From the IMG/VR virus record IMGVR_UViG_3300035181_001974: a stretch of DNA of 64,000 nucleotides; one strand, written 5' to 3'. This document shows positions 40,204 through 64,000 of the stretch, piece after piece. Made by a program: the position numbers and the translations under genes. The DNA comes from a virus. Under the pieces are notes generated by a model that had not been told where the DNA came from, did not search any database, and worked only from the letters and a program-made list of their open reading frames with translations. Position 1 is the first letter of the stretch; the number at the start of each line of letters is the position of its first letter.

Positions 40204-43200
40204 ATGGCAGGGCCTATTGACAAAGAACAACTAGACATCGCGACAAAGATGGCGGCCCTGATGGACCGCATGGCCGCGGCGTCTAACAAGATCGACGATG
40301 CTCAGGCGACTCAGGTTGAGTCGATGAAGCAGCTCGCGGCGGCCATGGGCACGCTCGATGTCAGAGAGACTGTCAACCAGCTGAACCAGGTCACTCAGAG
40401 TCTCAAGATCCTGATTGACAAGATGGGTGATCTGTCCAAGACGCAGCAGGCGACCCTGGATGAACTGGGTAAGAAGGCGGCCACTGCTGGGACCTCCGTT
40501 CAGGCCTTGACTGGCCGCATGAAAGAAACGCAACAGGCCGCGCAGGGAGTCAACCAGACGAAAATGGATGATTTCTTGAGGGCCCTCGAGGAGCCCGGTG
40601 GGGTCTCCAAGTTGCTGCTCAAGCAGCTGCAGAAGTTGGGCGACTACCTGTCCAAGAAGTTCCCAACATCTTGGGCGATCTCGGCCGCCGCGATCTCGGG
40701 ATTCAAACAGGGCATCAAGAACGTCATGGCCATCGGCAAGGGCCTGATGGGCTTCTTGGGAGGCCTACTCGATTCGTTGGTTAACATCGCGGGCGCGATC
40801 ATCGCGATTCCATTCAAGATGTTCAAGGGCCTGGTCGACATCGCCAACAATGCGGCGGGCGGCTCTAATGAGCTGCTACAGGCCATCGAGAACATTCGTA
40901 AGGAGTTTGGAGCCCTCGATCAGACGGGGCCCAAGGCCATCTTTGCGATGGCAACAGAATTGAAGGGTTTCTCTGACACGGGCCTGTCAGCCTGGCGCGT
41001 CTTCGGCGACATGGCTCACCGCCTCGAGGAATTCCTGAAGCTGTCGCAGGAGATGGGCCCGACCTTTGAGAACTTCGCACAGGAGTTCCACGATAATGGT
41101 GGTGCCTTGCTGGCCTGGCAGAAAGGCCTCGGTCTCAGCGGCGAGATGATGGGAACCATCGGCGCTCGTGCCAAGATCTTTGGTACCACGATGGCAGACC
41201 AGTTGATGCCCATCCAGAAGCAGGCGATGGACCTGGGCAAGCAGTTTGGCATTGCTTCGAAGCACATCTCACGGGACATGGTCAAGGCCATGAACGACGT
41301 GAAGCACTTTGCGGGTGCCACCGTCAAGGAGATCGGTCAAGCATCGGTCTATGCCCGCAAGCTGGGCCTCGAGCTCGACAAGATCACCGGCATACTTGAT
41401 GCCTTCGAGACGTTCGACTCAGCGGCTGAAAATGCTGCCAAGCTGTCGCAAGCCTTTGGCATTTCCGTCGATGCTTTCAAGTTGATGGAGGCACAGGATC
41501 CCGCGACGCAGATCGAGATGCTCCGCAAGCAGTTCGCTGCCGCCGGTGTTGATGCATCCCAATTCAATCGTCAGCAGAAGAAGTTGTTGGCCTCGACCAC
41601 GGGCCTCGATGAGAAGACAGCGCAGATGGCCTTCTCGATGAAGAACCAAGGCGCGTCCCTGGATGACATCAAGAAGAAGAGCGAGCAGGCCGAGAAGAAG
41701 CAGTTGAGCCAGGCCGAAGCCATGGAGAAGTTGGCCGACTCGATTGAGCGCATCGTGATGGCAGGCGGCTCCAGCATGCAGGGGGGCTTCTTCGATAGAT
41801 TCTTCCATGGGTTCTTGGGTGGCATTCAGGCCTCCAAGGAGTTCCGTGATATCATCTGGAACATCAAACGTGGCATGTTGTTGGTCGAACAGGCTGGCGT
41901 CAGGCTAGGGAAGGCCTTCGTTGAGGCCTTCCCTGGCGTCAAGGATATTCTTGGTGGAATCGCGGAGCTCTTCAGTCCGAAGAAGTTCGGCGCACTGTTC
42001 AATGGAATCACTGATGAGCTGATCAAGTTCTTCAAGGGCTTCACCAAGGGCGAATACTCGTTCTCGAAGTTGATGGACAACCTCAAAGAGAAGTTCTTCG
42101 ATTTCTTCAACAAGAGTGAGGGCGCTGGCAAGCGGGTGCTCAACGGCTTCAAGGAGTTCTTCCTCACGATTAGCAAGATGCTGGGTGAGGCCATCAAGTG
42201 GATCTCCGACAAGATGAAGGACGTCATCGTCTGGATCACTGACGTCATCACGGGCAAGGTCGAGTTGGGCGTGCCCGGGGGCTCTGGCGCTTTGGGATTC
42301 CTGGGAGACCTGTTGGCACCCATCGCGGAAGGCCTAAAGCACGCGTGGAAGGTCCTAGCACCTGCAATTTGGGACCTGCTCAAAGTATTGGGTGGCAAGG
42401 TCCTTAACTTCCTCCAGAACACTGTTCTACCAGCCGTCAAGCCGTTCATTCCAATGTTGGCGGGAACGCTGTTTGGACCTGCACTGACGCGAGCCGCGCT
42501 GGCCGCATTGACCACCGCACTGGGTAAGGGCTTCATCGCAGGTGCGGGTGCTATCTTCAAGAAGTTCGGTCCGAAGATCGCGGAGGCAGCCGGCACAGTC
42601 AAGTCAGCGCCTGAGGCCCCAGGTTCACCGCTACCCAGCGCAGGCAAGTCAGAAGAGATCATCAAGGCCGGTCAGGCAGCTGAAAAAGGTGGCACTGGCA
42701 TCAACTGGGCCAAGGTCAAAACGTTCTTGTTGGCAGTTGCCGGCGTTATCCTCATCGGCATGGTCGCCGTCTTCGCCGCGATCATTCTCATTCGTAAGTT
42801 CAACATCAAAGACGCTGAATTGATCGAAGGCCTGAAGACAGTGGGCCTTGCTGCGTTGGCTATGGTTCCAGCAGCACTTGCGTTGAAGATCGTCTCGAAG
42901 GTCAATGTTGATGCCAACACGGGCAGCGGTCTGCTTGCGGTGGGTCTAGCTTTGCTTGCGATGGTTGGCATTATGGGCCTCGTCTATTTGGCTCTCAAGG
43001 GCGTTGACATCAATCGCATGAAGAATGTCGTCGACGTCTTGTGGGAACTGTCGAAGGTGTTCCTGGCTGTCAGCCTCGTCACCCTCGCTGCCATGGGCAT
43101 CGGTGCTATCATCATGTCAACATCGGGCCTCGGCGCGATTGCGTTGGCCGCTGGCATGACAGCGTTGGTCGCGGCAGTAGCTGTCATGGGTGAAGCCGCT

Positions 43201-45246
43201 ATCGAGATCATGAAGAAGCTCAATGAGGTGCCAATGGGCCAGGGCTTCAAGGAGAAGGTCGACGCCTTCACCAAGATCATGGACTCGATCACCAACTTTG
43301 GCAAGAACATCGCTGCCATTTTGGAGGCCGTCAAGCCGTCGTTCATCACGTTGCTCAGTGGCAAGGATGACACCGTCGAGCGAATCCATAGCGTCACTGA
43401 GATGATGAAGGCGATGATCGGCCAACCTGGCGGGTCCGGCATCATCGGCATCATTGAGACGATCACCAAGACGTTGCAGGCTCTAGTCTCTGGCGGCCCT
43501 GAGATGCTCGAGGCTGCCAAGGCATTTGCTGAGATCTTGAACGCAATGGGCAGCCTGGCAAACGCCATGAAGCCACCTGACAAGCTGTTCGAGTCCGTCG
43601 ACAGCATGTGGACAACCGGCGAGGACGTGCACAAGGCCATCGATAAGGTGACGCAGTACGCAGGTGACACGGCAAAGAACGTTGAACGTCTGATTAACGT
43701 TTTCGTCGAAAAGGTCATGCCTCTCGTGCAAGGTGGACTCAACGAGAGTCAACTCAAGGCCTCGGCGGCTGTGGGTCAGTTGCTGGGTTCAGTGGTGTCA
43801 ATTGCACAGGCCATGTCACCTTCACCCAACGCCATCGAGGCGTTGAAGGATGTCACTGGTAACATCATTGCACACGGTGACGACAAGAACCTGAAGCCTG
43901 AAAACATGCAGGCCCTGGGTGCCTACGTTACTCAAATTTCTGACGGTTTGTCAAAGGTGATTCCTGCTATCATCAGTGCCATCGAACCCCTGCTGCAGAC
44001 AATGTCGAGTTGGCACTTTAGTGATTCTGACGCCGCTGCCACGAAGTTTATCGGCCCGCTGTTGCAGCAGATGTTCATCATGGTCCAGGCGATCACGGCG
44101 CAGAGCTCGCAACTAGCACAGGCCAAGGTGCCCAACCTCAACGTGGTTACTTTCATTGACAAGATTGGTGACATCGTTCCAAAGATCTTCACCTCGATCA
44201 ACGAGAAGATGCCCTTCCTGTTCGATAGCCTCAAAATGGGCATCGAAAATCTTCAGAAGGGTACCAAGCCCGAGTCCTTGAAACAAGGCATCGATGTCTT
44301 CAAGTCATTGATGGACATCGTAGGTATGATTCCCGGCATCATCACGTCATTGACGGGTGATGCCAAAGGCGGCGACATCCACGGCAAGGGCTTTGCCATG
44401 GCTGAAGTCATCAACGAAGTTGCTTGGTTCTTTGAGAAGATCTTCAAGAGCGGCGTCGGCGCCGGCATCGCGCCGATGGAGCTGATTTCTTACGTCTTGG
44501 GATTGCCCATCATCAAGACATTGGCAGGACAGAAGTCGGAAATCGATAGCCTAAAGTTGCTGTTCGGCCTCATTAATGATGTCATGAAGGTCATCAAGGA
44601 CGTCAACTCACTGGTGTCGGGCGGCACGCAGATCGCCGGCATTGGTTTCAAGATGGCACTCATCATGAATGAAATTGGTTGGTTCTTCGAGAAGATCACC
44701 AAGAGCGGCGTCGGACAAGGCGACGCCCCACTGAAGTTGATCTCCGATTCACTGGCTGATCCGATCATCGGCAAGATCGCTGGTCAGAAGGCAGCCCTCG
44801 AGAACCTCAAGAAGGCCTTTGGCAACTTCACAGACATTCTGAAGAGTGGTAGCGACCTTGAGGCCATCTCCAAGAGCATGACGAAGGACGGCATCGGCAC
44901 CGCGTTGATTGCAATCAACGACATGGTCACTAAGGCCCAGAGTCTGAATGATGCCTTGGGCAAGCTCCCGGATTTGAAGTTGGACGCCAAGTTGAAGACG
45001 CTAGCCAACGGCATGGGTTTGGGCGGCAAGTTCAATTACGAGATCAAGGCGAAAGACGTCGTCATCAACATGACCGTCAAGATCGAGATGAGTGCTTCTG
45101 ACGTTGAGAAAGCGATCGTCCTGCGTAAGGACTCGGTCATCAGGGACCGCATCAACTTTGCGACGGGCTCGCCCGACAAGACTGCTTCGACCACACTGCC
45201 CGATACAGCAACGGGTTACACGTATACTCCCGTGACGGCCAAGTGA
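40204..45246 (+). CDS. Tail tape measure protein (1680 aa)
   Basis: Very long helical protein with a central block of hydrophobic transmembrane segments and internal ~60-aa tandem repeats (...WFFEKI(F/T)KSGVG...). Lies downstream of the tube. Confidence 0.8.
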   Translation: MAGPIDKEQLDIATKMAALMDRMAAASNKIDDAQATQVESMKQLAAAMGTLDVRETVNQLNQVTQSLKILIDKMGDLSKTQQATLDELGKKAATAGTSVQALTGRMKETQQAAQGVNQTKMDDFLRALEEPGGVSKLLLKQLQKLGDYLSKKFPTSWAISAAAISGFKQGIKNVMAIGKGLMGFLGGLLDSLVNIAGAIIAIPFKMFKGLVDIANNAAGGSNELLQAIENIRKEFGALDQTGPKAIFAMATELKGFSDTGLSAWRVFGDMAHRLEEFLKLSQEMGPTFENFAQEFHDNGGALLAWQKGLGLSGEMMGTIGARAKIFGTTMADQLMPIQKQAMDLGKQFGIASKHISRDMVKAMNDVKHFAGATVKEIGQASVYARKLGLELDKITGILDAFETFDSAAENAAKLSQAFGISVDAFKLMEAQDPATQIEMLRKQFAAAGVDASQFNRQQKKLLASTTGLDEKTAQMAFSMKNQGASLDDIKKKSEQAEKKQLSQAEAMEKLADSIERIVMAGGSSMQGGFFDRFFHGFLGGIQASKEFRDIIWNIKRGMLLVEQAGVRLGKAFVEAFPGVKDILGGIAELFSPKKFGALFNGITDELIKFFKGFTKGEYSFSKLMDNLKEKFFDFFNKSEGAGKRVLNGFKEFFLTISKMLGEAIKWISDKMKDVIVWITDVITGKVELGVPGGSGALGFLGDLLAPIAEGLKHAWKVLAPAIWDLLKVLGGKVLNFLQNTVLPAVKPFIPMLAGTLFGPALTRAALAALTTALGKGFIAGAGAIFKKFGPKIAEAAGTVKSAPEAPGSPLPSAGKSEEIIKAGQAAEKGGTGINWAKVKTFLLAVAGVILIGMVAVFAAIILIRKFNIKDAELIEGLKTVGLAALAMVPAALALKIVSKVNVDANTGSGLLAVGLALLAMVGIMGLVYLALKGVDINRMKNVVDVLWELSKVFLAVSLVTLAAMGIGAIIMSTSGLGAIALAAGMTALVAAVAVMGEAAIEIMKKLNEVPMGQGFKEKVDAFTKIMDSITNFGKNIAAILEAVKPSFITLLSGKDDTVERIHSVTEMMKAMIGQPGGSGIIGIIETITKTLQALVSGGPEMLEAAKAFAEILNAMGSLANAMKPPDKLFESVDSMWTTGEDVHKAIDKVTQYAGDTAKNVERLINVFVEKVMPLVQGGLNESQLKASAAVGQLLGSVVSIAQAMSPSPNAIEALKDVTGNIIAHGDDKNLKPENMQALGAYVTQISDGLSKVIPAIISAIEPLLQTMSSWHFSDSDAAATKFIGPLLQQMFIMVQAITAQSSQLAQAKVPNLNVVTFIDKIGDIVPKIFTSINEKMPFLFDSLKMGIENLQKGTKPESLKQGIDVFKSLMDIVGMIPGIITSLTGDAKGGDIHGKGFAMAEVINEVAWFFEKIFKSGVGAGIAPMELISYVLGLPIIKTLAGQKSEIDSLKLLFGLINDVMKVIKDVNSLVSGGTQIAGIGFKMALIMNEIGWFFEKITKSGVGQGDAPLKLISDSLADPIIGKIAGQKAALENLKKAFGNFTDILKSGSDLEAISKSMTKDGIGTALIAINDMVTKAQSLNDALGKLPDLKLDAKLKTLANGMGLGGKFNYEIKAKDVVINMTVKIEMSASDVEKAIVLRKDSVIRDRINFATGSPDKTASTTLPDTATGYTYTPVTAK

Positions 45247-45552: not shown

Positions 45553-48500
45553 ATGGGCACCAACACAGGCACTCCTGGATTCGACATTGACGGTCAGTCG
45601 TACACCTACGATGTTGGCGACCCGAGTGCACCGCCTGCGCCTGGTTACCCGCTGACGACAGACAAAGGCGACTTGACGGTTGACAAGAACGACCCGCCCA
45701 AGAAGGACCTCAGCAACACCACCAAGAAGACGCTGGCAGACTACTTGGGTAAGAAGACGCAGATCAACTACTACCCCGTCGATGGCACGGCATCTGATGC
45801 CAGTACTTCCGCGCCTAACAATCAGACGCCCGCTATTCCAGCGCCCGATCACACCACCGAAAATTCTACCTTCTTCACGAAAGGCAAGAGCATCATCGGC
45901 GGCACTTCATCCACATCAAATTTGAAGGGATGGATGACGGGCGCGCAAACTGACGATAAGAAGTACACCGCGCCTGATCCGGCGATCGTCAAGCTCAAGA
46001 AAGGCAAAGAGTTGGGCTCGCCGCCCGATGCGATTGACGGCAATCATTTGCTGCCCGACGTGCCCGACGGGTCAGTCGACGGCACGACGGTCGGCAACTA
46101 CACCAAGTCTGTGTTGGCCAACAATCGCTTTACGTCTGACGCTCCCTATGGGGCCAGTGATAATCCGACATTGTACTCACCCAAGTTTGGTCGATTTTCG
46201 ACCAAACGAATGGCACAGGTCGGCGTTGCCTTGTCGGTGCGTGCATCCCGCGAGCTGAACTCCGCAAAGGAAGGTCTGAATCCCAGCTCCGGCGGCATGG
46301 AAGCCAAGGCGATCTTGCCGTCATTCAACCAACTGGGAACGACCAAGATTGACCTGTCGATGTTGGAGGCGCAAGACGTCCTCCGGACCATCAGCGCTGA
46401 CGAGATTCCCGACCAAGGCCTGGTGTCGATCGCCAATGGCTCGTGGGGATCTATGAACAACACATACGATACCTACTCAGGAATCACGTCATTGGGCATG
46501 ATCGCCCTGTCGACTGCCTTGACAGCAGGAGTTCAGTTGCTGTTCGAGGGCCTGGCCTCATTGTTGTCATTGATCAAAGGAACGCCAGAAGACAAGAAGA
46601 CGAGAGACGGTCGCTTCATCTTGGGATCTTCAACAAAGGCTAAGCTGGCTGATCCCAATGCATTCCCACCGAACTTTCCGTTGGACATCGGCGCCCTCTT
46701 GGGAATCAGGCCCACATTGCATAGGTTTTCGGACTGCCTCAAGGTCGGGACGCTGGCATTCTTTGGCATTTCTAGTGATGGCACCGCTGGTGCCCTGGTC
46801 ACGATCGATGCCACAGCCATCACGTCTGCGCCGGGCTACAACTCTGTCGTTGCACGTGCTGTCATCCGTTCAATCTCTAGCATCATCGAGTCAATCAAGA
46901 AGATCTTTCAGAGCAACAACCTGGTGTCTGGCGTTAAGAACCTGCTGTCGATGCTCGATGTGTTGAGGCATTCAAAGTTGGTCTCAGCCTTGAACGTGTT
47001 TTCAACGTTGGGCGACAAGATCTTGACCGACAGTGACTTTGACAACATCAGCGCCCCGGGTGAGCCCGTCAGGCGCTCGAGCATCGACAAGCTGCCCGAT
47101 GACGTTCCGTCAAATGTCATCGGCAAGAACCGAATGGGCGATGGCAAGAATCTCAAGCTGGCGTGGAGCTCTAACAGAGCACCTGCGTTGTACCTGCTGC
47201 CGAATGCCACGCTAGCGCTGCAGGCCACGACTGATAACTTGGGTAGCTTCCAATCAGGCATTGCCTCAGAAGACGCAGACACTCGAGCGCAGTACTACCT
47301 GTTGTCGAACGATGCCAGCAAGAAGAACGGCAATCGTATCCCGGTCGGCAAGGGCTCTGATAACGACAACGATGTCACGTTGCGGAACATGGAACGTGCT
47401 CTCGATGCTGAGTACATCCCGTTCTATTTTCACGATGTGAGGACCAACGAGATTATTGCCTTCCACGCCTTCCTGTCGTCATTGTCTGACGATTACACGG
47501 CCAACTATGAATCATCTGATGGCTTCGGGCGTGTAGAGCCCGTCAAGATCTACAAGAGCACCGTCCGCAAGATCGGCCTCAGCTTCTACGTGGCCGCCAC
47601 GAGCCCGGCTGATTTCAAGGACATGTGGGTCAAAATCAACAAGCTGACGACTCTCATCTATCCACAGTACAGCGAAGGTCGTTGGTTGTCAGACAAGGAC
47701 AACAACTACGCCTTCACCCAACCGTTTAGCCAGATGATTGCAGCATCACCGTTGGTTCGATTGAGGCTGGGCAACCTGTTGTCGACCAACTACTCACGAT
47801 TCGCGTTGGCCAGGCTCTTTGGAGCCACGTTGGGTGGTGATTCGGTGGCACAGTTCGGTGATAGTTCTGGCCTTGACTTTGATGCAGGTAACCAGTTTAA
47901 GGTACCGCCGGAGATCATCAAGTCACGAACCACGCCGTCAGAAAAGACTTGGTTCGTGACTCCGGGTCAGATCTACGATTCCGCGTCCGACGCAGGCAAG
48001 AGCAATCCGCTGCCTAGCAATCAGGTGCCGTCGGCCCCTCGGTGGAAGGTCGATGCCTATGCTGACATGATTCCTGTCAATGTTGTCTCAACGACAGACG
48101 ATGCAGATGTTGTAGCAGTCCAGGTCAAGATGCCCGACGCTGCGTTCTTCAACTCGCAAGGAATCACTGATCCTGCTCGACAGGCCGCGCTTACTCGGGC
48201 CATCACAAATTTGTACAATAATGACAAAGATCCTCTGAACAAGATCATCAATCAGAAGTTCCTCGTCAAGTCTTCGGAATTGCGTCCGACGCAGAGCACA
48301 TTGAAGGCAATCAACCAGGCTTCAGGCGCCAAGGTCACATCGCTCGATTCGTTGAGCAACTTCCTTGATCCTGAGAAGAACGCACTTGTCAAGTCGTTCA
48401 AGTCAGCAGGCGGCCGGGGCTTGGCGGGTTTCATCGATTCCATGAACTTTGACTGGTACGACAAGGTCAATTGGGACGACAGGCCTGGTCACAAGGCACC

Positions 48501-48639
48501 GATGATGTGCAAGGTCACCATCTCATTCACGCCCATCCACGACATCTCGCCTGGTCTCGATTCGCAGGGGTACAATCGGGCTCCCATTTATCCGGTGGGT
48601 TACTTTGCTCCATCGACTGATACTGACGACAAGAAGTGA
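45553..48639 (+). CDS. Large tail/baseplate protein (1028 aa), possibly a distal-tail or gpD/DNA-circulation-like protein
   Basis: Lies directly after the tape measure. Large T/S/G-rich ORF. Confidence 0.5.
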   Translation: MGTNTGTPGFDIDGQSYTYDVGDPSAPPAPGYPLTTDKGDLTVDKNDPPKKDLSNTTKKTLADYLGKKTQINYYPVDGTASDASTSAPNNQTPAIPAPDHTTENSTFFTKGKSIIGGTSSTSNLKGWMTGAQTDDKKYTAPDPAIVKLKKGKELGSPPDAIDGNHLLPDVPDGSVDGTTVGNYTKSVLANNRFTSDAPYGASDNPTLYSPKFGRFSTKRMAQVGVALSVRASRELNSAKEGLNPSSGGMEAKAILPSFNQLGTTKIDLSMLEAQDVLRTISADEIPDQGLVSIANGSWGSMNNTYDTYSGITSLGMIALSTALTAGVQLLFEGLASLLSLIKGTPEDKKTRDGRFILGSSTKAKLADPNAFPPNFPLDIGALLGIRPTLHRFSDCLKVGTLAFFGISSDGTAGALVTIDATAITSAPGYNSVVARAVIRSISSIIESIKKIFQSNNLVSGVKNLLSMLDVLRHSKLVSALNVFSTLGDKILTDSDFDNISAPGEPVRRSSIDKLPDDVPSNVIGKNRMGDGKNLKLAWSSNRAPALYLLPNATLALQATTDNLGSFQSGIASEDADTRAQYYLLSNDASKKNGNRIPVGKGSDNDNDVTLRNMERALDAEYIPFYFHDVRTNEIIAFHAFLSSLSDDYTANYESSDGFGRVEPVKIYKSTVRKIGLSFYVAATSPADFKDMWVKINKLTTLIYPQYSEGRWLSDKDNNYAFTQPFSQMIAASPLVRLRLGNLLSTNYSRFALARLFGATLGGDSVAQFGDSSGLDFDAGNQFKVPPEIIKSRTTPSEKTWFVTPGQIYDSASDAGKSNPLPSNQVPSAPRWKVDAYADMIPVNVVSTTDDADVVAVQVKMPDAAFFNSQGITDPARQAALTRAITNLYNNDKDPLNKIINQKFLVKSSELRPTQSTLKAINQASGAKVTSLDSLSNFLDPEKNALVKSFKSAGGRGLAGFIDSMNFDWYDKVNWDDRPGHKAPMMCKVTISFTPIHDISPGLDSQGYNRAPIYPVGYFAPSTDTDDKK

Positions 48640-48939: not shown

Positions 48940-51900
48940 ATGACAGGTGATTTTGGTAGCCTCGAGAGTATCTTTCAAATGCTGCAGCCCGCAGATCTGT
49001 TGGCTGCGCAGAAGGTCAGTCTAGGTAGTGATGCCACGAACCGTAATTCTGTCCTACGTCAGCTGCAAAGGCTGATGCTCGAAGGTGGCAATGGTGGCGT
49101 CTATGATGCTGCCACGATGTTGGCCAAAATGCAAGAACTGTCGACCAAGTCGACGGGTGCGGAAGACCTTAAGTTGTTCAATCGGTTGATCAACTTTTAC
49201 ACGACTGCAGGCGCTGGCAAGCTGTCGGACGTGACATATCCGTACATCTATCAAGACGCTGACGGTAAGACGGTCAAGGATGACATCAGCGTTGACAAGA
49301 TCGTCGGATTTAAAGATCCCGACAAGATTCGCGGTGATCGCGATTTGAGCATCTTCGTCTCGCGGTCGCCCTTCATCACGCCAATGGCCCGTGATGCGCA
49401 GAAGGTCGAACTGTTCTTGAATTTCCTGCCGACGACGGTGATCTCGCGGTGCGTTCCGTACCTAGAGCTCGAGTTTGAGTTCGACCGCGGTATCAGTAAA
49501 GGCGACGACAAGGCCTTGACGTTGACCACCGCTGGCATGCTCAAGTTCCTATTGGGCGGCGACAAGCTACAGGCTGACACGCCTAACGCGGCAATGTTCG
49601 GCGCTAGGACGACGGTCGGCGAGGACAAAGACTCACAGCGCATGAAGTCGACGGCGGGAATGGAACTGTTCACAGCTCCTCAGACGTTGATCAACATGGA
49701 CCCGGTGACCGCCAAGCAAGGCAAGCGCTACGTTGACGTCATCGATCCAACACGGCCTTTTGCGTCCCTGGAGAACGTCACCATCAACGTGGCACCCACC
49801 GTGGGCATCATGTCCTACAAGAAGGCCACGGCGGTCATCAAGCTGCACGATCGCTCTAGGCTAGCTGAGTTGGCCGACCTGATTCAGCCCACGACCTACA
49901 CACGCACCACAGTGTGGCTGACGTACGGCTGGCGACATCCATACGAGCCAGCATCTGACACAAAGTCGACGCAGACGTACGCTGACTTCATCAACAACAA
50001 CATGTTGATCCGCGAGGCGTACGGCGTCATGAACGCAGGCTTTGCGTTCGACCAGGTCGGTCAAGTGACGATCACCTTGGAGTTGTTCACCAAGTCAGTC
50101 TCTGAGATGCGCGACATCAAGGTCACTGATGATCCAGAGGAAGGTTTCAAGCAGATCTCGCAGAAGATTGAGGACCTTGCTCGACAGATCGGTGAACTTC
50201 GCCGTGCCTACAACCTCAATCCACCTACTGGTCTCAACAAGGAGATCCGCGGGTTCATGGTCCTCGATACCGCTGAACAAGGCGGATTTCCAAATCTGAA
50301 GCCCAACGAGGTGTTGGACGCGATCACTGCGCTCGAGACGGCACTGCGAAACTCAGGCAAGATTGGCGCAGGTACATCAGATCCATTGATCGCCAAGCTG
50401 AAGCAACTGTACGCTTCAGCGGGCGGTGCCAATAAGGACGTCTTTGATTACCAGCAGCAGTACAAGAACATTGCGTCTTCATACGTAGCGCGGAAGTTTG
50501 AGGAACTGTCGAGGGGGCCAGATCCATTCTTGCCTTTCAGGGTCAAGGATGACAAGCGTAAGGCTGAGGCGGGACCCGATGATTCGCATCCGCTGCTGAA
50601 GGAGATGGAGACGTACCTGAAATCAGATCCCTTGAGCGACGATCTGAAGAAGGACGGCCTGAAGAAAGGCTACTGCTCGTTCGGCAAGCTCTTCAGCGTC
50701 TTTATGGGCCCGGCCTTGTTCACCGTCAAGAGCGTCGACGAATTTCAACTGTTGTTCTACACCTTGAACGACAAGTGCGGTCCGGCCTCAGCCATCAGCA
50801 TCGCCGAGTTTCCAATCGACCTTCCCGTCTTTTTGCGACAGTACAAGGAAGTTATCGAATCCCGTGGCACCACGACGATGACGATTGAACAGTTTGTCAA
50901 GTTGGCCATCGACGCTCAGCTGCAGGATCCTCGCGCCATCGGGTATGGATTCAAGTCAGCGCAGGTCTTCAAACCTTGGGATCCTAAAGGCCGCGATCCA
51001 GCATTCAAGGACAATGCAACGGCATCACAGTACGACCAGTTGATCTGGTCGGTCAACGGCCAGCGCGGCGCATTTCAGATGCCACAGATCGAGGTCTACA
51101 TTGAGACGACGCACGCCAAGGCGTCATCTAGTGATGCCACCAAGGACGTGCCGACTGACCTACTGCGTTACTACGAGGGTTCACCGTCAAAGCCGGGCTC
51201 AGCGGGTTTCTCAAAGATCAAGAAGATCGTCCGCGTTCACATCTATGACAAGACCGTTAACCCGTACCGCGCTGCCGGCGCGCTGCTGCGGGCCGACACG
51301 CCTTTGGGCTCTGCCTCGTCGATCTATGAAGTCGATGCAAATTCCTGGGTTAAGGCATACCACGGGGATGACGAGAAGACGGTCACCACGGCGGGACCGC
51401 TGAAGACCAAGATTGCATCTAAGACTGCGACAGCGAGCGACTCAAATGACAGCCCGATTCACGTGAAGCTGATCGAGGTCACTGAGGTCTCTAGCAACCA
51501 GAGCATCAAGCACCTGGTCTCCAAGATGGTGCCCAGCCTCGTCTATGGCATGAATGCCTCGGGAATCATCGATGCATCGGTTCAGACGAAGCACGATGCT
51601 AACCTGACCGCAGCGCAGCTGTTGGGCCTCAATTCGGGCAAGAAGGTCCAGGCGACTCCACAGGGCGGCGGCATGGGTGGACTGCCTTTGAAGGTGATTC
51701 CTGCAGCATTGACGCTGCGGACGATAGGTTGTCCGTTGTTGAACTACTCGCAACTGTTCTTTATTGACTTCAACACCGGCACCACGTTGGACAACATCTA
51801 CGGCATCTCTGGTTTGACGCACACTCTGGCACCGGGCAAGTTCGAATCGAGCCTAACAATGGCCTTCTATGATGCCTATGGCAAATATGAAGGCGCGCCG

Positions 51901-51948
51901 CAGCTCGTTGACAAGATTAAGTCACATCCCTTGGTCCTCGATAAGTGA
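48940..51948 (+). CDS. Large baseplate/tail protein (1002 aa)
   Basis: ATGA-coupled to the protein X-like gene. Large ORF. Confidence 0.5.
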   Translation: MTGDFGSLESIFQMLQPADLLAAQKVSLGSDATNRNSVLRQLQRLMLEGGNGGVYDAATMLAKMQELSTKSTGAEDLKLFNRLINFYTTAGAGKLSDVTYPYIYQDADGKTVKDDISVDKIVGFKDPDKIRGDRDLSIFVSRSPFITPMARDAQKVELFLNFLPTTVISRCVPYLELEFEFDRGISKGDDKALTLTTAGMLKFLLGGDKLQADTPNAAMFGARTTVGEDKDSQRMKSTAGMELFTAPQTLINMDPVTAKQGKRYVDVIDPTRPFASLENVTINVAPTVGIMSYKKATAVIKLHDRSRLAELADLIQPTTYTRTTVWLTYGWRHPYEPASDTKSTQTYADFINNNMLIREAYGVMNAGFAFDQVGQVTITLELFTKSVSEMRDIKVTDDPEEGFKQISQKIEDLARQIGELRRAYNLNPPTGLNKEIRGFMVLDTAEQGGFPNLKPNEVLDAITALETALRNSGKIGAGTSDPLIAKLKQLYASAGGANKDVFDYQQQYKNIASSYVARKFEELSRGPDPFLPFRVKDDKRKAEAGPDDSHPLLKEMETYLKSDPLSDDLKKDGLKKGYCSFGKLFSVFMGPALFTVKSVDEFQLLFYTLNDKCGPASAISIAEFPIDLPVFLRQYKEVIESRGTTTMTIEQFVKLAIDAQLQDPRAIGYGFKSAQVFKPWDPKGRDPAFKDNATASQYDQLIWSVNGQRGAFQMPQIEVYIETTHAKASSSDATKDVPTDLLRYYEGSPSKPGSAGFSKIKKIVRVHIYDKTVNPYRAAGALLRADTPLGSASSIYEVDANSWVKAYHGDDEKTVTTAGPLKTKIASKTATASDSNDSPIHVKLIEVTEVSSNQSIKHLVSKMVPSLVYGMNASGIIDASVQTKHDANLTAAQLLGLNSGKKVQATPQGGGMGGLPLKVIPAALTLRTIGCPLLNYSQLFFIDFNTGTTLDNIYGISGLTHTLAPGKFESSLTMAFYDAYGKYEGAPQLVDKIKSHPLVLDK

Positions 51949-60392: not shown

Positions 60393-63300
60393 ATGAGGAC
60401 TTTCACGTATCAGCACGTTCGCGATGCGTCGATCGAGTATTTTCGTGGAGATGAGCTGGCGGGTGAGGTCTTTGCAGGCAAGTATGCGCTGCAGGATCTT
60501 AAGGGAAACATTTACGAGGCTACCCCTGACGACATGCACCGGCGCGAGGCGCGGGAGTTTGCTCGCATCGAGACACGGTATCCGAACGCCATGTCAGAGC
60601 AAGAGATCTATGAGCTCTTCTCTTCATGGGACGTGGTCCCACAGGGATCACCCATGTCGGCAGTTGGCAATCCGTACCAGTTTCAGTCGTTGAGCAACTG
60701 CTTCGTTATCGAGAGCCCTTATGATTCCTATGGCGGCATCCTAAAGACTGACCAGGAACAGGCGCAGATCATGAAGCGTCGCGGCGGCGTGGGTTTTGAC
60801 ATCTCGACGATTCGCCCGAAGGGTATCGAGACTGCCAACGCTGCCCGCACCACCGATGGCCTGGGCATCTTCATGGAGCGCTACAGTAATACCTGTCGCG
60901 AGGTGGCCCAAGGCGGCCGCCGAGGCGCGCTGATGTTGACAGTGTCGGTGCACCACCCGGAGATTCGCACCTTCATCAACATCAAGAAGAACAAGAAGAA
61001 GGTCACGGGCGCCAACATATCGATTCGTTTGACAGACGAGTTCATGAACGCCGTTAAGGCGGGTACGCAGGTTCAACTGCGGTTTCCAGTTGACAAAGAC
61101 GTTCCTCACATCGTCGAGGAACAGGTAGACGCTCGCCAACTGTGGCATGAGATCATCCAGGCAGCATGGGAATCTGCTGAACCCGGTTTGCTGTTCTGGG
61201 ACACTGTCCTGCGCCGCGGGCCAGCAGATGCCTACGCTGCGTTTGGTTACGGCTCGACGAGCACCAACCCGTGCATTACGGGAGAAACTCTTATCGCCGT
61301 CGCTGACGGAAGGGGTTACGTGCCCATCAAGCAGCTAGCTGACGAAGGCAAGGACTTGCCGGTCTATTGTTACCAGGAGGCCACAGGAAAAATTGGCATC
61401 CGCCTGATGAGGAATCCTAGGCTTACCGGTAAGGGAGTTCCTGTGTTCAAGGTGACCATTGAGGGAGGTCACACTTTTAAGGCCACCGGAAACCACACGA
61501 TGATCATGCGTGACGGATCCCGGAAGCGAGTCGACGAGCTGTTGAATGGCGATCAACTTTGGGTTGCTCATAAAGTCGCTGGCAAGTTTGCTGAATATTC
61601 GGCGAAGATGAGCGAGAGCGTCGGTGGGGCCAACAATCCGCGTGCCTATGACAACGTCACCAATGATGACATCCGCCAACACGTGCTGGGGTTGACCCGG
61701 TCGCTCGGCCGCCGCGTTTCACTGAACGAGTGGTACGCTTACGCTAAACAACGGTCGCTGCCGATGTCGTTTTCGGCCTGGCGTCGCAGCGAGCTGGGAA
61801 GCTTCTACGACCTGTCGTGCTGGGCGGCTCGAGAGGTCGACATCTCAACACCAGAACTCGACACGAGGATTCAACGTACGTACGTTCAGGCCCTTGAAGA
61901 AGGTTATGATGTCGATGTGATCGACGGTGAGCTGTACGTCAACCGGACGTGTGAGTGGTGCAACGAAATGTTCGCGCTGCCGTACTGCCGACGTGAACAG
62001 GCATTCTGCTCACATTCGTGTTCCAACCTCTACGCAAACAGGAAGGCCAATAAGAACGTTGCACGGGCAGAGAACCTGAAGAAGCTTCACGCTGATCGTG
62101 CAGAAGTAACGCGAAAACAGCAACTTGACGCCTTTACCTCACTTAGGTTTACGTTGGGTAGAGAGCCCTTGGGAAGAGAGTGGGTTGCCGAATGTCGACG
62201 CTTGGATGTGCCGGCACGAATCGGTACCAAAAACGGTTTTGCGTCCTGGTCTGCCCTGAAAGAGGCCGCGGCATTGCACAATCACCGCGTGATCAGCGTT
62301 GAACCCGCGGGTGTCGAAGACGTGTACAACGGCACTGTCGACGGAGAGCACACACTGTGCATGTATGTTGGTGACGAAAAGCTTGTACAGTTCCAAAATC
62401 AAGCAAACGTAATAATCGCTAGCGAACAATGCGGTGAGATTACGCTGTCGCCTTACGATTCATGTCGTTTGCTTCTCGTCAACCTCGCTCGCTTCGTCAG
62501 AGATCCATTTACTCCTCACGCCAGTTTTGACTTCGTGCGCTTCAACGATGTTGTTAAGAAGGCGCAGAAGTTGATGGACGATCTCGTCGACCTGGAGCTC
62601 GAGGCCATTGATCGAATCATGCAGAAGATCGAGAATGACCCTGAGCCCGCTGACGTGAAGCGGCCCGAAATCGAGCTATGGACCAAGATCCGCAACACTG
62701 CAATCAATGGTCGTCGCACCGGCTTGGGCATCACTGCCTTGGGCGATGCCTTGGCCTACCTCAACATCAAGTACGGTTCGGACGAGTCTATCAACGTCAC
62801 TGAGCAGATCTATAAGGGCCTCGCGTTGGGTGCCTACCGCTCGACTGTTGAGATGGCACGTGATCGTGGTCCCTTCCCGATTTTTTCCCACAAGGTGGAA
62901 GAGGGACATCCTTTCATTGAACAAGTGATGGACGCTGATCATGAGCTCCGTGATCAGTATCGTCTCTATGGACGTCGCAACATCGCCTTGACGACGACAG
63001 CGCCAGCTGGCTCTGTCTCCATCTTGACCCAGACTACATCTGGCTGCGAGCCCGCCTTCCTCCTGAGCTACAAGCGAAGGAAGAAGATCAATCCGAATGA
63101 CTTGGATGCTCGTGTCGACTTCGTTGACGCCATGGGCGACAAGTGGCAGGAGTACACGGTCTATCACCACGGATTCAAGAAGTGGATGGACGTCACTGGT
63201 GAGACCGACGTGGAAAAGTCGCCTTACTTCGGTGCCACGTCGAATGACATCGACTGGGTCAAGAAGATCGACGTCCAGGCCGCAGCTCAGAAGTGGGTCT

Positions 63301-64000
63301 GTCACTCCATCTCGAACACCACCAACATTCCGAGTGACACGCCGGTCGATGTGGTGAAGCAGATCTACATGCGCGGTTGGGAGACTGGTTGCAAGGGCGT
63401 CACCATCTATCGAGATGGTTCTCGTGATGGCGTCCTCATCAAGGACGAGAAGAAGACAGCGGCGGACCAACCCAAGAATATCGCCGAGTCTCACTCTCTG
63501 AAGCGTCCGAAGGAGCTGGAGTGTGACATTCACCACGTTTCGATCAAGGGTGAGAAGTACCTGGTCTTCGTGGGCCTCATGAACGGCAAGCCTTACGAGC
63601 TGTTCGCCGGACTGTCAGAACAGGTTGAAGTCCCGAGGAAGGCCAAGAAGGGCGTCCTCATCAAGAACGGCAAGAACGCTGACGGGGTGTCCACGTACAA
63701 CCTCCGCGTCGACCTGGACGACAATTTCCTTCTCTATAAGGACATTGTCAACCTCTTCGACAATCCGTTGTACGGAGCGCACACTCGAACCTTGTCGATG
63801 ACACTTCGACATGGAGTACCAGTTCACCTTGTCGTCGAGCAGCTCCGCAAGGACAAGCACAGCGATCTGTTCTCGTTCTCGACGGTTATCGCGCGAACGT
63901 TGAGCAAGCACTACATCGTGGATGGGACCAAGGCAACGCAGGAAAAGTGTTGCCCGATCTGTGCCTCGACGTCGCTCGCCTATCAGCAGGGATGCGTTAC
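60393..64000 (+). CDS. Ribonucleotide reductase, class II (NrdJ-like), interrupted by an intein; 3'-truncated at the window end
   Basis: N-terminal region ...GEVFAGKYALQD.... Active-site motif TNP|C...|CGEITLSPYDSC(R/N)L is split by a 386-aa insertion. The frame stays open to base 64000. Confidence 0.75.
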   Translation, partial: MRTFTYQHVRDASIEYFRGDELAGEVFAGKYALQDLKGNIYEATPDDMHRREAREFARIETRYPNAMSEQEIYELFSSWDVVPQGSPMSAVGNPYQFQSLSNCFVIESPYDSYGGILKTDQEQAQIMKRRGGVGFDISTIRPKGIETANAARTTDGLGIFMERYSNTCREVAQGGRRGALMLTVSVHHPEIRTFINIKKNKKKVTGANISIRLTDEFMNAVKAGTQVQLRFPVDKDVPHIVEEQVDARQLWHEIIQAAWESAEPGLLFWDTVLRRGPADAYAAFGYGSTSTNPCITGETLIAVADGRGYVPIKQLADEGKDLPVYCYQEATGKIGIRLMRNPRLTGKGVPVFKVTIEGGHTFKATGNHTMIMRDGSRKRVDELLNGDQLWVAHKVAGKFAEYSAKMSESVGGANNPRAYDNVTNDDIRQHVLGLTRSLGRRVSLNEWYAYAKQRSLPMSFSAWRRSELGSFYDLSCWAAREVDISTPELDTRIQRTYVQALEEGYDVDVIDGELYVNRTCEWCNEMFALPYCRREQAFCSHSCSNLYANRKANKNVARAENLKKLHADRAEVTRKQQLDAFTSLRFTLGREPLGREWVAECRRLDVPARIGTKNGFASWSALKEAAALHNHRVISVEPAGVEDVYNGTVDGEHTLCMYVGDEKLVQFQNQANVIIASEQCGEITLSPYDSCRLLLVNLARFVRDPFTPHASFDFVRFNDVVKKAQKLMDDLVDLELEAIDRIMQKIENDPEPADVKRPEIELWTKIRNTAINGRRTGLGITALGDALAYLNIKYGSDESINVTEQIYKGLALGAYRSTVEMARDRGPFPIFSHKVEEGHPFIEQVMDADHELRDQYRLYGRRNIALTTTAPAGSVSILTQTTSGCEPAFLLSYKRRKKINPNDLDARVDFVDAMGDKWQEYTVYHHGFKKWMDVTGETDVEKSPYFGATSNDIDWVKKIDVQAAAQKWVCHSISNTTNIPSDTPVDVVKQIYMRGWETGCKGVTIYRDGSRDGVLIKDEKKTAADQPKNIAESHSLKRPKELECDIHHVSIKGEKYLVFVGLMNGKPYELFAGLSEQVEVPRKAKKGVLIKNGKNADGVSTYNLRVDLDDNFLLYKDIVNLFDNPLYGAHTRTLSMTLRHGVPVHLVVEQLRKDKHSDLFSFSTVIARTLSKHYIVDGTKATQEKCCPICASTSLAYQQGCV
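61272..62429 (+). mobile_element. Intein (386 aa) inserted at the NPC/GEI radical-Cys motif of the RNR
   Basis: Block A CITGETLIAVADG. Block B GHTFKATGNHTMIM. Block F ...VEDVYNGTVDGEHTL.... A Cys-rich CEWC...C..C...C central domain. Ends ...IIASEQ before the extein Cys, i.e. a C-terminal Gln variant. Confidence 0.7.

What the first reader, a model, noticed from the sequence alone, without database searches (positions are those of the whole stretch)
61272..62429. Intein inserted at the radical-cysteine NPC|GEI motif of a class II ribonucleotide reductase, with a Gln C-terminus
The RNR active-site motif is split as TNP-[CITGETLIAVADG ... VIIASEQ]-CGEITLSPYDSC. The insert starts with Cys and contains Hint blocks A and B (TGNH), block F (VYNGTVDGEHTL), and a Cys-rich central domain (CEWC..C..C...C) that may be a degenerate or zinc-type endonuclease. 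The C-terminal residue appears to be Gln rather than Asn, an uncommon splicing variant.
Basis: partly seen in the sequence, partly recalled or inferred. Interest (0 to 1): 0.55.

Follow-up and report, generated by a model that had tools for sequence, protein, structure and literature searches.

The report
Endonuclease-less Gln-ending intein in phage NrdJ
A phage B12-dependent ribonucleotide reductase gene is interrupted, just before its radical-forming cysteine, by a self-splicing protein element (intein) that ends in glutamine and has lost its DNA-cutting module. This is a correct but fairly ordinary find, because the site, the glutamine ending and the intein family all have many precedents.

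Summary
Window 61272-62429 (+) is a 386-aa in-frame insert in a class II RNR gene (nrdJ, 60393 to beyond 64000), read as TNP|CITGE...ASEQ|CGEITL.

- **Junction.** With the insert removed, the protein aligns without gaps to T. maritima NrdJ. It also matches 78-79% identical phage NrdJ genes with an empty site, which read ...GYGSTSTNPCGEITLSPYDSCRL.
- **Intein identity.** The insert has a Hint fold. Cys1, block B T72-x-x-H75, block F VYNGTVD..H360, terminal Gln386 and Cys+1 are all present.
- **Family.** It belongs to a large, mostly uncultured intein family at this same site: 601 clusters at E<=1e-30, in phages, bacteria and archaea. C-terminal Gln is the majority state (106 Gln, 71 Asn among 177 unique inteins). 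No other terminal residue occurs, and none has a penultimate His.
- **Closest relatives.** They are 480-483 aa, up to 65% identical, and several end in the same ...IASEQ.
- **Lost endonuclease.** Those relatives carry an HNH_3 endonuclease. The window copy lacks exactly 96 codons containing it, deleted between short direct repeats. It keeps the accessory modules, including a four-Cys zinc ribbon.

Verdict: a probably splicing-competent, homing-dead class 1 intein, and a new member of a known kind.

The parts
60393..61271 (+). N-extein of class II ribonucleotide reductase NrdJ (293 aa), ending ...GYGSTSTNP
   Evidence: ORF and translation. Pfam Ribonuc_red_lgN and lgC. Aligns to T. maritima NrdJ, including the Cys in LSNCFV. 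The gene call on the identical contig L001 starts at the same ATG.
61272..62429 (+). Intein, 386 aa, Cys1 to Gln386
   Evidence: Absent from NrdJ genes 78-79% identical to the exteins. 65% identical to the 480-aa intein in L004.
61272..61571 (+). Hint N-lobe (residues 1-100), with block A (C1) and block B (T72-G-N-H75)
   Evidence: Residues 2-110 align to Ssp DnaB intein residues 4-109. AF2 pLDDT is about 80-90. C1, T72, N74 and H75 are invariant in alignments A2 and A3.
61584..61595 (+). Deletion scar K105-F-A-E108 (AAG TTT GCT GAA), where 96 codons carrying the HNH core are missing relative to full-length relatives
   Evidence: Alignment A3. The codon-level comparison shows the motif (K/R)F(A/T/N)E on both sides of the missing block in L004, L007 and L008. 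HNH_3 hits at residues 136-177 and 136-178 of L004 and L007 fall inside the missing block 107-202.
61596..61949 (+). Retained accessory region: NUMOD3-like GGANNPRAY motif and a helical HTH-like module (residues 109-226)
   Evidence: Conserved with the HNH-bearing relatives. Weak NUMOD3 hit (E=0.011, below the cutoff) in relative P0002 at the aligned motif, and weak HTH_25 hit in the window. AF2 predicts helices at 131-209. A DNA-binding role is inferred, not shown.
61950..62021 (+). Four-Cys zinc-ribbon-like module C227-x2-C230-x15-C246-x3-C250 (CEWC...FCSHSC)
   Evidence: C227, C230, C246 and C250 are invariant in clade alignment A3. A matching motif is found in 91 of 120 family inteins. AF2 predicts a small beta-sheet at 214-237. 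Metal binding and function are inferred.
62022..62279 (+). Long helix plus a second HTH-like module (residues 251-336; ...GTKNGFASWSALKEAA)
   Evidence: AF2 predicts helices at 248-295, 301-310 and 326-336. Conserved in the clade.
62322..62357 (+). Block F, V351-Y-N-G-T-V-D-G-E-H360-T-L. Asn353 sits where most inteins have the F-block Asp, and His360 is the F-block His.
   Evidence: Aligns to Ssp DnaB block F. V351-V356 and H360 are invariant in the family.
62358..62411 (+). Family-specific extension between blocks F and G (residues 363-380). It is variable in sequence.
   Evidence: From the F-block His to Cys+1 there are 17-36 residues, median 25, in the family, versus about 10 in Ssp DnaB (recalled sequence). 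AF2 pLDDT is below 50 here.
62412..62429 (+). Block G, V-I-I-A-S-E-Q386. The terminal residue is Gln (CAA) and the penultimate residue is Glu rather than His.
   Evidence...IASEQ is shared by L004, L007, L008, L010 and L011, and Q386 is invariant in A3.
62430..62432 (+). Cys+1 codon (TGC). It is the C-extein nucleophile and also the thiyl-radical cysteine of the TNPCGEI active-site loop.
   Evidence: Aligns to the Cys of T. maritima NrdJ STNPCGEIGLSDYEAC. PMC2677866 describes this position as the thiyl-radical active site.
62430..64000 (+). C-extein of NrdJ. It continues 34 nt beyond the window end; the full precursor is 1213 aa.
   Evidence: L001 and L002 are identical over the whole gene and give the C-terminus ...CCPICASTSLAYQQGCVTCMNCGNSKCG*.

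Best explanation
This is a class 1 (standard four-step) intein embedded in a myovirus-like phage's B12-dependent ribonucleotide reductase NrdJ, directly before the thiyl-radical cysteine.

After translation of the 1213-aa precursor, the following steps are proposed (inferred from the conserved residues):
1. Cys1 performs the N-S acyl shift, assisted by block B Thr72 and His75.
2. Cys+1, the future radical cysteine, attacks the thioester to form the branched intermediate.
3. The terminal Gln386 cyclises to a glutarimide, assisted by F-block His360, and releases the intein.
4. An S-N shift restores TNP-CGEI and hence an active RNR.

The intein belongs to a large family dedicated to this site. 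In that family Gln and Asn alternate at the C-terminus and the penultimate His is never present.

The ancestor of this copy carried an HNH_3 homing endonuclease with NUMOD3-like, HTH-like and zinc-ribbon accessory modules. This copy lost exactly the 96 codons holding the HNH core, through a deletion between short direct repeats. It should therefore still splice but can no longer cut DNA and home by itself.

The sequence data show the identity, the boundaries, the family, the Gln terminus and the HNH loss. The chemistry and the actual splicing are inferred.
For: **Insert and junction**
- In-frame 386-aa insert.
- Hint homology to the Ssp DnaB intein at E=1.1e-8, and Foldseek hits exclusively to inteins.
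- Gap-free junction against T. maritima NrdJ and against empty-site viral NrdJ 78-79% identical to the exteins.

**Family**
- The profile search found 601 clusters at E<=1e-30.
- There are 281 relatives in IMG/VR and 269 in GTDB species genomes from many phyla.

**Terminal residue**
- Among 177 unique family inteins, 106 end in Gln and 71 in Asn. The same holds in cellular genomes, 43 Gln and 35 Asn.
- No other terminal residue was seen, although the pattern allowed any residue.
- No penultimate His occurs in any member.
- Restriction to the two amide residues argues for selection on cyclisation.
- The closest clade (52-65% identity) keeps Gln invariantly, and most members keep ...ASEQ.

**Catalytic residues**
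- C1, T72, H75, N353, H360 and Cys+1 are all retained.
- The extein keeps the RNR catalytic Asn, Cys and Glu and both redox cysteines, so the host gene appears to be under selection and needs splicing.

**HNH loss**
- No HNH_3 hit in the window intein, while P0001, P0002, L004 and L007 score above the gathering threshold.
- A family-specific HNH HMM finds nothing in any frame of the 64 kb, against a positive control of 7e-21.
- The gap is exactly 96 codons and is flanked by TTTGCTGA-type repeats.

**Literature**
- Inteins with C-terminal Gln, and inteins without a penultimate His, do splice. The CIV RNR intein splices better with its native Gln than with Asn (PMC4031507).
Against: - Splicing was not and cannot be tested here.
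- The window intein's Pfam Intein_splicing score (30.1 bits) is below the gathering score.
- AF2 confidence is below 50 for residues 359-380, the stretch leading into the C-terminal splice junction, so the active-site geometry around Gln386 is unmodelled.
- The penultimate residue is Glu, which is rare even within the family (1 of 143 representative-search members and 1 of 78 genome members, plus the ASEQ clade).
- Loss of the endonuclease shows the element is in the decay phase of the homing cycle, so loss of splicing cannot be excluded.
- The three available copies of this phage's gene are identical, so there is no polymorphism from which to measure selection.
Confidence: 0.8

Rival explanations
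1. The intein is a decaying, splicing-defective remnant, and this phage's nrdJ is effectively a pseudogene or is tolerated as non-functional.
For: The endonuclease core is already deleted. The penultimate Glu and the A-S-E-Q block G deviate from the family's commonest N-N-L-Q/N ending. The Pfam intein score is below threshold. [quoted passage not shown]
Against: The 1213-codon reading frame is intact. All catalytic intein residues and all RNR catalytic residues are retained. The exact ...IASEQ|CGEI terminus is conserved in relatives only 53-65% identical, which still carry an intact HNH and so appear to be active mobile elements. The deletion is precisely in frame and removes one module only.
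Confidence: 0.12
2. The 386-aa segment is a native insertion domain of this RNR lineage and not a mobile, excised element.
For: None beyond its in-frame position. The central region has no strong Pfam match.
Against: NrdJ genes 78-79% identical lack the insert entirely and read straight through TNPCGEI. The ends of the insert are a Hint domain. An insert here would split the catalytic loop that holds the radical Cys. Homologous inserts sit at the same site in unrelated RNR lineages, both monomeric and dimeric class II. GC3 is 0.61 in the insert versus 0.69 and 0.71 in the flanks.
Confidence: 0.01
3. The intein splices, and the endonuclease-less copy is still mobilised in trans by an endonuclease encoded elsewhere, or simply by recombination during co-infection with related phages.
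For: Trans-homing of a defunct homing endonuclease element by a free-standing HNH enzyme is documented for T4 mobE and I-TevIII (PMC2790892, listed). The retained DNA-binding-like modules and zinc ribbon are still conserved. The family shows mosaic exchange of C-terminal tails: L008 and L016 differ at only 11% of aligned positions in the splicing core but have unrelated tails.
Against: No HNH of this type is present anywhere in the 64-kb window, and none is called in the 6 kb downstream. The rest of the genome was not available.
Confidence: 0.07

Closest known systems
Contiguous inteins at the RNR thiyl-radical-Cys site, as described by Dassa et al. 2009 (PMC2677866)
   Same: Identical insertion point, directly N-terminal to the radical Cys, which serves as the +1 nucleophile. 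[quoted passage not shown]
   Different: This copy sits in an uncultured myovirus-like phage and lacks an endonuclease.
Chilo iridescent virus RNR intein, and Pyrococcus abyssi and Methanoculleus marisnigri Pol II inteins (inteins with C-terminal Gln)
   Same: The C-terminal residue is Gln instead of Asn. All were shown experimentally to splice, and the CIV RNR intein splices better with its native Gln than with Asn (PMC4031507). CIV is also an RNR intein in a virus.
   Different: These are treated in the literature as isolated exceptions. Here Gln is the majority state of a family with hundreds of clusters. Sequence relatedness to the CIV intein was not tested.
Ssp and Npu DnaB mini-inteins (PDB 1mi8, 4o1r)
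   Same: These are the best sequence and structure matches for the splicing domain: about 35% identity over 95-101 aligned residues. The Hint fold, Cys1, block B TxxH and the block F His are the same.
   Different: The DnaB inteins end in canonical His-Asn, have Asp at the F-block position (Asn353 here) and have no 14-residue F-to-G extension (recalled DnaB sequence compared). They sit in a different host protein.
HNH_3 (PF13392) homing endonucleases with NUMOD-type accessory modules
   Same: Full-length relatives (P0001, P0002, L004, L007) score above the Pfam threshold for HNH_3. A weak NUMOD3-like motif (E=0.011, below the cutoff) follows in P0002, with the aligned NNPRAY motif in the clade members.
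   Different: The window copy has no HNH core at all. Only the accessory modules and the zinc ribbon remain.
NrdJ-1 split intein (PDB 8ubs; Dassa 2009)
   Same: It is also in phage-like class II RNR, has a Hint fold, and gives a Foldseek hit at 1.5e-5.
   Different: NrdJ-1 is split and sits one residue further C-terminal (PMC2677866). Sequence similarity is only marginal, E=0.28.

Membership tests
Intein (class 1, Hint superfamily) | In-frame insertion in a conserved host protein, absent from orthologs, whose removal restores the host sequence exactly | tested here: met
   Empty-site NrdJ in L083-L087 (184-187 of 237 identical, no gap) reads STNPCGEITLSPYDSCRL. The spliced protein aligns without gaps to T. 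maritima NrdJ.
Intein (class 1, Hint superfamily) | Hint fold and sequence homology to characterised inteins | tested here: met
   phmmer hit to 1mi8 at E=1.1e-8. The top 17 Foldseek hits are all inteins. Pfam Intein_splicing is E=4.9e-7 but below the gathering score, whereas relatives P0001 and P0002 are above it at 52 bits.
Intein (class 1, Hint superfamily) | N-terminal nucleophile (Cys or Ser at position 1) and block B Thr-x-x-His | tested here: met
   C1, T72 and H75 are present and invariant in the family alignments.
Intein (class 1, Hint superfamily) | C-terminal cyclising residue (Asn, rarely Gln or Asp) followed by a Cys, Ser or Thr at +1 | tested here: met
   Gln386 (CAA) followed by Cys (TGC). 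Every family member examined ends in Gln or Asn, 106 and 71 of 177 unique inteins.
Intein (class 1, Hint superfamily) | Penultimate His in block G. This is common but not obligatory. | tested here: not met
   The penultimate residue is Glu385. There is no penultimate His in 143 + 78 family members. Functional inteins without it are documented (PMC4031507).
Intein (class 1, Hint superfamily) | Actual protein splicing | not testable with these tools
   Requires expression and SDS-PAGE or mass spectrometry.
Class 3 inteins (WCT motif, no N-terminal nucleophile) | Absence of Cys1 or Ser1, with a block F Cys as the first nucleophile | tested here: not met
   Cys1 is present and the F-block position is Asn353, not Cys. 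The element is therefore not class 3.
HNH_3 homing-endonuclease-containing intein | HNH (beta-beta-alpha-metal) catalytic motif between the Hint lobes | tested here: not met
   No HNH_3 hit at E<=1 in the window intein. The family-specific HNH HMM finds nothing in six frames of the window, against a control of 7e-21. The 96-codon gap covers the HNH_3 hits of L004 and L007.
HNH_3 homing-endonuclease-containing intein | Descent from HNH-bearing members, shown by shared accessory modules and splicing domain | tested here: met
   65% identity to the L004 intein outside the gap. The NUMOD3-like motif, helical modules and four-Cys ribbon are collinear.
Class II (adenosylcobalamin) ribonucleotide reductase NrdJ (host protein) | RNR ten-stranded barrel with the Asn-x-Cys-x-Glu radical loop and redox cysteine pair. 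Closest solved homolog is a B12-dependent RNR. | tested here: met
   Ribonuc_red_lgC at 2.4e-86. The best PDB hit is the T. maritima B12-dependent RNR at 3.8e-60, with the loop and cysteines aligned. Cobalamin use itself was not tested.

The most novel reading that the evidence does not exclude
The window's intein may be one member of a very large, mostly uncultured intein family that has gone largely undescribed as such. The family is dedicated to the RNR radical-Cys site and occurs in phages, many bacterial phyla and some archaea.

Its features are:
- C-terminal Gln is the majority state, about 60%.
- Gln and Asn swap repeatedly even between close relatives, although the codon change (CAA to AAT) needs two substitutions through Lys or His.
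- The penultimate His is universally absent.
- Asn replaces the usual F-block Asp.
- A 17-36-residue spacing, including an extension loop, separates the F-block His from Cys+1.

If so, the family would be a naturally optimised active-site architecture for glutarimide-forming (Gln) splicing. It would be a distinct mechanistic subclass rather than a set of sporadic, sub-optimal variants, which is how Gln inteins are usually portrayed.
Probability: 0.3. Interest if true: 0.45.

Novelty: new member of a known kind. Interest (0 to 1): 0.27.

Why it matters
For annotation, this nrdJ should be read as one intein-containing gene of 1213 codons encoding a functional RNR, not as a fusion or a pseudogene. 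The intein is an endonuclease-deleted copy with an identifiable deletion scar, which is a clear snapshot of the decay phase of the homing cycle.

The family-level by-product may be more useful than the single case. Hundreds of natural inteins with Cys+1 and no penultimate His end interchangeably in Gln or Asn. That gives a ready comparative data set for asking what makes Gln cyclisation efficient. It also provides candidates such as the 146-170-aa mini-inteins P0008, P0011 and P0013, or the copy in cultured Deinococcus frigens DSM 12807, for protein-engineering tools. None of this overturns current understanding of inteins.

Tried and rejected
- **Megablast of the gene against INPHARED phages:** no match. 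The phage has no sequenced close relative in that collection.
- **Word-indexed homolog search with the intein:** only 13 hits, which first suggested a tiny family. The exhaustive profile search showed that was a sensitivity artefact, with 601 clusters at 1e-30.
- **tblastn of the intein against cultured phages:** only distant N-lobe hits in Dickeya, Salmonella, Thermus and Bacillus phage RNR inteins, at 25-35% query coverage. The family is essentially uncultured among phages.
- **AF2 model from the 8-sequence alignment:** the Hint N-lobe and helical modules are usable, but residues 101-124 and 359-380 are below pLDDT 50. No conclusion about the geometry of Gln386 was possible.
- **Polymorphism between copies of the same phage, to estimate selection:** the three copies are identical.
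- **Tree-based test of whether Gln and Asn are clade-specific:** Fitch changes were 51 against 55 for shuffles. The tree rests on about 123 residues and is poorly resolved, so I rely instead on specific close pairs with homologous tails (L026/L040, L027/L030, L054/L064). I do not claim a rate.
- **The idea that the true C-terminus is the internal ...FQNQ:** I rejected it. The window tail is the same length as that of P0001 and aligns end to end with the clade's ...IASEQ, and Ala cannot serve as a +1 nucleophile.
- **The Amitai et al. 2004 paper on Gln and Asp inteins:** not held in the library, so the relationship to the CIV intein remains untested.
- **GC3 of the intein:** 0.61 versus 0.69 and 0.71 in the flanks. 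It falls only in the lowest 6% of same-size windows, which is suggestive of foreign origin but not decisive.
Full report
**1. What is in the sequence**

Frame +3 of the window carries one long ORF. It starts at ATG 60393 and runs off the window end. On contigs from two other samples that are identical over this gene, the gene is 3642 nt and 1213 codons. Pfam finds the RNR barrel domain (Ribonuc_red_lgC, 2.4e-86) in two pieces flanking a 386-aa insert. The insert is window 61272-62429.

**2. The boundaries are exact**

With the 386 codons removed, the protein aligns without a gap across the junction to the Thermotoga maritima B12-dependent RNR (1xjk, E=3.8e-60). The aligned loops are STNPCGEIGLSDYEAC and STNPCGEITLSPYDSC.

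Closer evidence comes from IMG/VR. Viral NrdJ genes L083-L087 are 184-187 of 237 identical to the spliced sequence with no gap. They read ...GYGSTSTNPCGEITLSPYDSCRLLLVNL straight through the site. The segment is therefore an insertion, not a native RNR domain. The +1 residue is the Cys of the N-x-C-x-E radical loop.

**3. It is an intein**

- Residues 2-110 match the Ssp DnaB mini-intein at E=1.1e-8, and a second stretch matches block F.
- The AF2 model (mean pLDDT 71.6) hits only inteins at the top of a Foldseek search of the PDB: Ssp and Npu DnaB, NrdJ-1, Npu DnaE and Mtu RecA, from 1.2e-6.
- The catalytic positions are all present. These are Cys1, block B T72-G-N-H75, block F V351-Y-N-G-T-V-D-G-E-H360, terminal Gln386 (codon CAA) and Cys+1 (TGC).
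- Three features deviate from the textbook consensus. There is no penultimate His (Glu385). Asn353 sits where most inteins have the F-block Asp. There are 26 residues, not about 10, between the F-block His and the +1 Cys.

**4. It is a typical member of a large family**

A word-indexed search returned only 13 relatives. An exhaustive profile search with the alignment of these (A2) found 7183 proteins at E<=1e-3 and 601 clusters (50% identity) at E<=1e-30. Pattern scans found 281 relatives in IMG/VR viral contigs. They found 269 in GTDB species genomes, spanning Bacteroidota, Chloroflexota, Eremiobacterota, Acidobacteriota, Patescibacteria, Deinococcus (including cultured D. frigens DSM 12807), cable bacteria and Asgard archaea.

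Nearly every member with a readable junction sits at the same (T)NP|CGE site of class II RNRs, in both the dimeric and the monomeric type.

The terminal residue was left unconstrained in the search pattern. The counts are:

| Collection | Inteins with readable C-terminus | Gln | Asn | Other |
|---|---|---|---|---|
| Protein searches (150 profile representatives + 13 homolog hits) | 143 | 85 | 58 | 0 |
| IMG/VR viral contigs | 66 | 44 | 22 | 0 |
| GTDB genomes | 78 | 43 | 35 | 0 |
| Unique full-length inteins from the first two collections plus the window | 177 | 106 | 71 | 0 |

No member has a penultimate His. Restriction to the two amide-bearing residues is what selection for side-chain cyclisation would produce. 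It argues that these inteins, Gln-ending ones included, splice.

**5. The closest clade**

The nearest relatives are inteins in IMG/VR NrdJ genes: L004 (65% identity), then L007, L008, L010, L006, L005 and L003 (52-56%). Gln386 is invariant among them. L004, L007, L008, L010 and L011 end in the same ...IASEQ|CGEI. The Gln, and the unusual Ser-Glu before it, are therefore old and conserved features and not a recent lesion or a sequencing error.

**6. The central domain**

Full-length clade members are 480-483 aa. They score above the Pfam threshold for HNH_3 at residues 136-178, as do the more distant P0001 and P0002. In total 99 of 120 family inteins have an HNH motif.

The window intein aligns collinearly with them except for one gap of exactly 96 codons, residues 107-202 of L004 and L007. 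That gap removes the whole HNH core. In the full-length relatives the missing block is bracketed by a short direct repeat, (K/R)-F-(A/T/N)-E. Examples are L004 left CGG TTT GCT GAG and L007 right AGA TTT GCT GAA. The window has a single copy, AAG TTT GCT GAA, at 61584-61595. A microhomology or slippage deletion is the simplest reading, and this is an inference.

An HMM built from the 99 family HNH segments finds nothing in any reading frame of the 64-kb window (best E=1.3). It scores 7e-21 on the positive control.

Several parts are retained and conserved:
- a NUMOD3-like GGANNPRAY motif;
- helical HTH-like modules;
- a four-Cys ribbon, C227-x2-C230-x15-C246-x3-C250.
- a long helix.

The Cys-rich segment is thus an accessory module of an HNH homing endonuclease, presumably for DNA binding or spacing. 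It is not a zinc-type nuclease. L003 (406 aa) lost its HNH through a different deletion, and shorter derivatives down to 146-aa mini-inteins exist. This is the usual homing-cycle decay.

**7. Mechanism**

The most likely mechanism is standard class 1 splicing with Gln cyclisation, as laid out in the best explanation. The radical Cys doubles as the +1 nucleophile, so RNR activity depends strictly on splicing. The copy can no longer home by itself.

The literature supports feasibility. Inteins with C-terminal Gln (CIV RNR, Pab and Mma Pol II) and inteins without a penultimate His splice. The CIV RNR intein splices better with Gln than with Asn (PMC4031507).

The main rival is a splicing-dead remnant in a decaying gene, which I rate at about 0.12. 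The reasons are the intact frame, the retained catalytic residues of both intein and RNR, and the conservation of the exact terminus in relatives that still carry an endonuclease.

**8. Comparison with what is known, and novelty**

[quoted passage not shown] Gln termini and HNH-type intein endonucleases are also known.

The family-level picture seems less appreciated. Gln is the majority state. The penultimate His is universally absent. Asn/Gln switches occur between close relatives with homologous tails: L026/L040 ...FLNNKN versus ...FLNNRQ, L027/L030, and Deinococcus L219 versus L228. C-terminal tails are also exchanged as mosaics: L008 and L016 differ at only 11% of aligned positions in the core but have unrelated tails. 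The terminal codons are mostly CAA and AAT, two substitutions apart.

I could not establish from the available literature whether this has been described. My tree-based test is weak. I therefore offer it only as the novel case, at probability about 0.3.

**9. Context**

The window is a myovirus-like phage genome with all large ORFs on the + strand. It encodes a gp23-type capsid protein, two adjacent sheath-like proteins of about 1000 aa, RecA, a 5'-3' exonuclease and a DnaB-type helicase directly upstream of nrdJ. Downstream lie ThyX, thymidylate kinase and other nucleotide-metabolism genes. The intein's GC3 (0.61) is lower than that of its exteins (0.69 and 0.71). It falls in the lowest 6% of same-size windows, which is mildly consistent with foreign origin.

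Noticed in passing
L003:3001-4218 (IMG/VR UViG_3300015608_002261): A 406-aa relative of the window intein has lost its HNH core through a different, independent deletion (…SKSWRAEHR|EVSGICNPHAY…). Endonuclease loss is therefore recurrent within this one clade.
   Followed up: partly
L008 vs L016; L026 vs L040; L027 vs L030; L219 vs L228: Within the family, close relatives differ in the terminal residue (Asn versus Gln) while keeping homologous tails. One pair differs at only 11% of aligned positions in the splicing core but has completely unrelated C-terminal tails. This suggests both point switches and modular tail exchange.
   Followed up: partly
window 29199-32213 and 32337-35384 (+): Two adjacent ORFs of about 1000 aa both match phage tail-sheath domains only at their C-termini (Phage_sheath_1C). 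They look like tandem sheath paralogs with large unexplained N-terminal regions.
   Followed up: no
window 40204-45246, 45553-48639, 48940-51948 (+): Three very large ORFs (1680, 1028 and 1002 aa) have no Pfam match at E<=1e-3.
   Followed up: no
window 5742-7643 (+): The gp23-type major capsid protein is 633 aa. The Pfam Gp23 profile matches in two stretches, the best being residues 371-624 to profile positions 129-356, which implies a large extra segment in the N-terminal half.
   Followed up: no
phage record MT774385.1 / NC_055878.1 (uncultured crAss-like phage cr108_1), 73819-76878: Its B12-dependent RNR matches the spliced query in two pieces spanning 3060 nt. It is annotated as two RNR genes plus a hypothetical protein, so it is another interrupted nrdJ (intron, intein or homing-endonuclease gene).
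   Followed up: no
L001:7366-13628 (continuation of the window's contig beyond 64000): Downstream of nrdJ lie four small unknown ORFs. They are followed by ThyX, thymidylate kinase, a faint dUTPase_2 match, an RlaP-family protein and a protein with Zeta_toxin, AAA_33 and HAD_PNKP hits. Together they form a nucleotide-metabolism block.
   Followed up: no
P0135 (1482 aa), around residues 1060-1380: One top profile hit has an N-terminal lobe of this family but sits after ...ADLER| rather than TNP|. It ends in a canonical ...GIVVHN|C, so a relative of the family exists at a different site with a standard His-Asn terminus.
   Followed up: no
L219 (Deinococcus frigens DSM 12807, NZ_JNIW01000016.1:66089-68683): A cultured organism carries a family member (ending ...YVNTQN|CGEIPL), while a Deinococcus MAG (L228) has ...YVNTVQ|CGEIPL. 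This is a convenient natural Asn/Gln pair for experiments.
   Followed up: no
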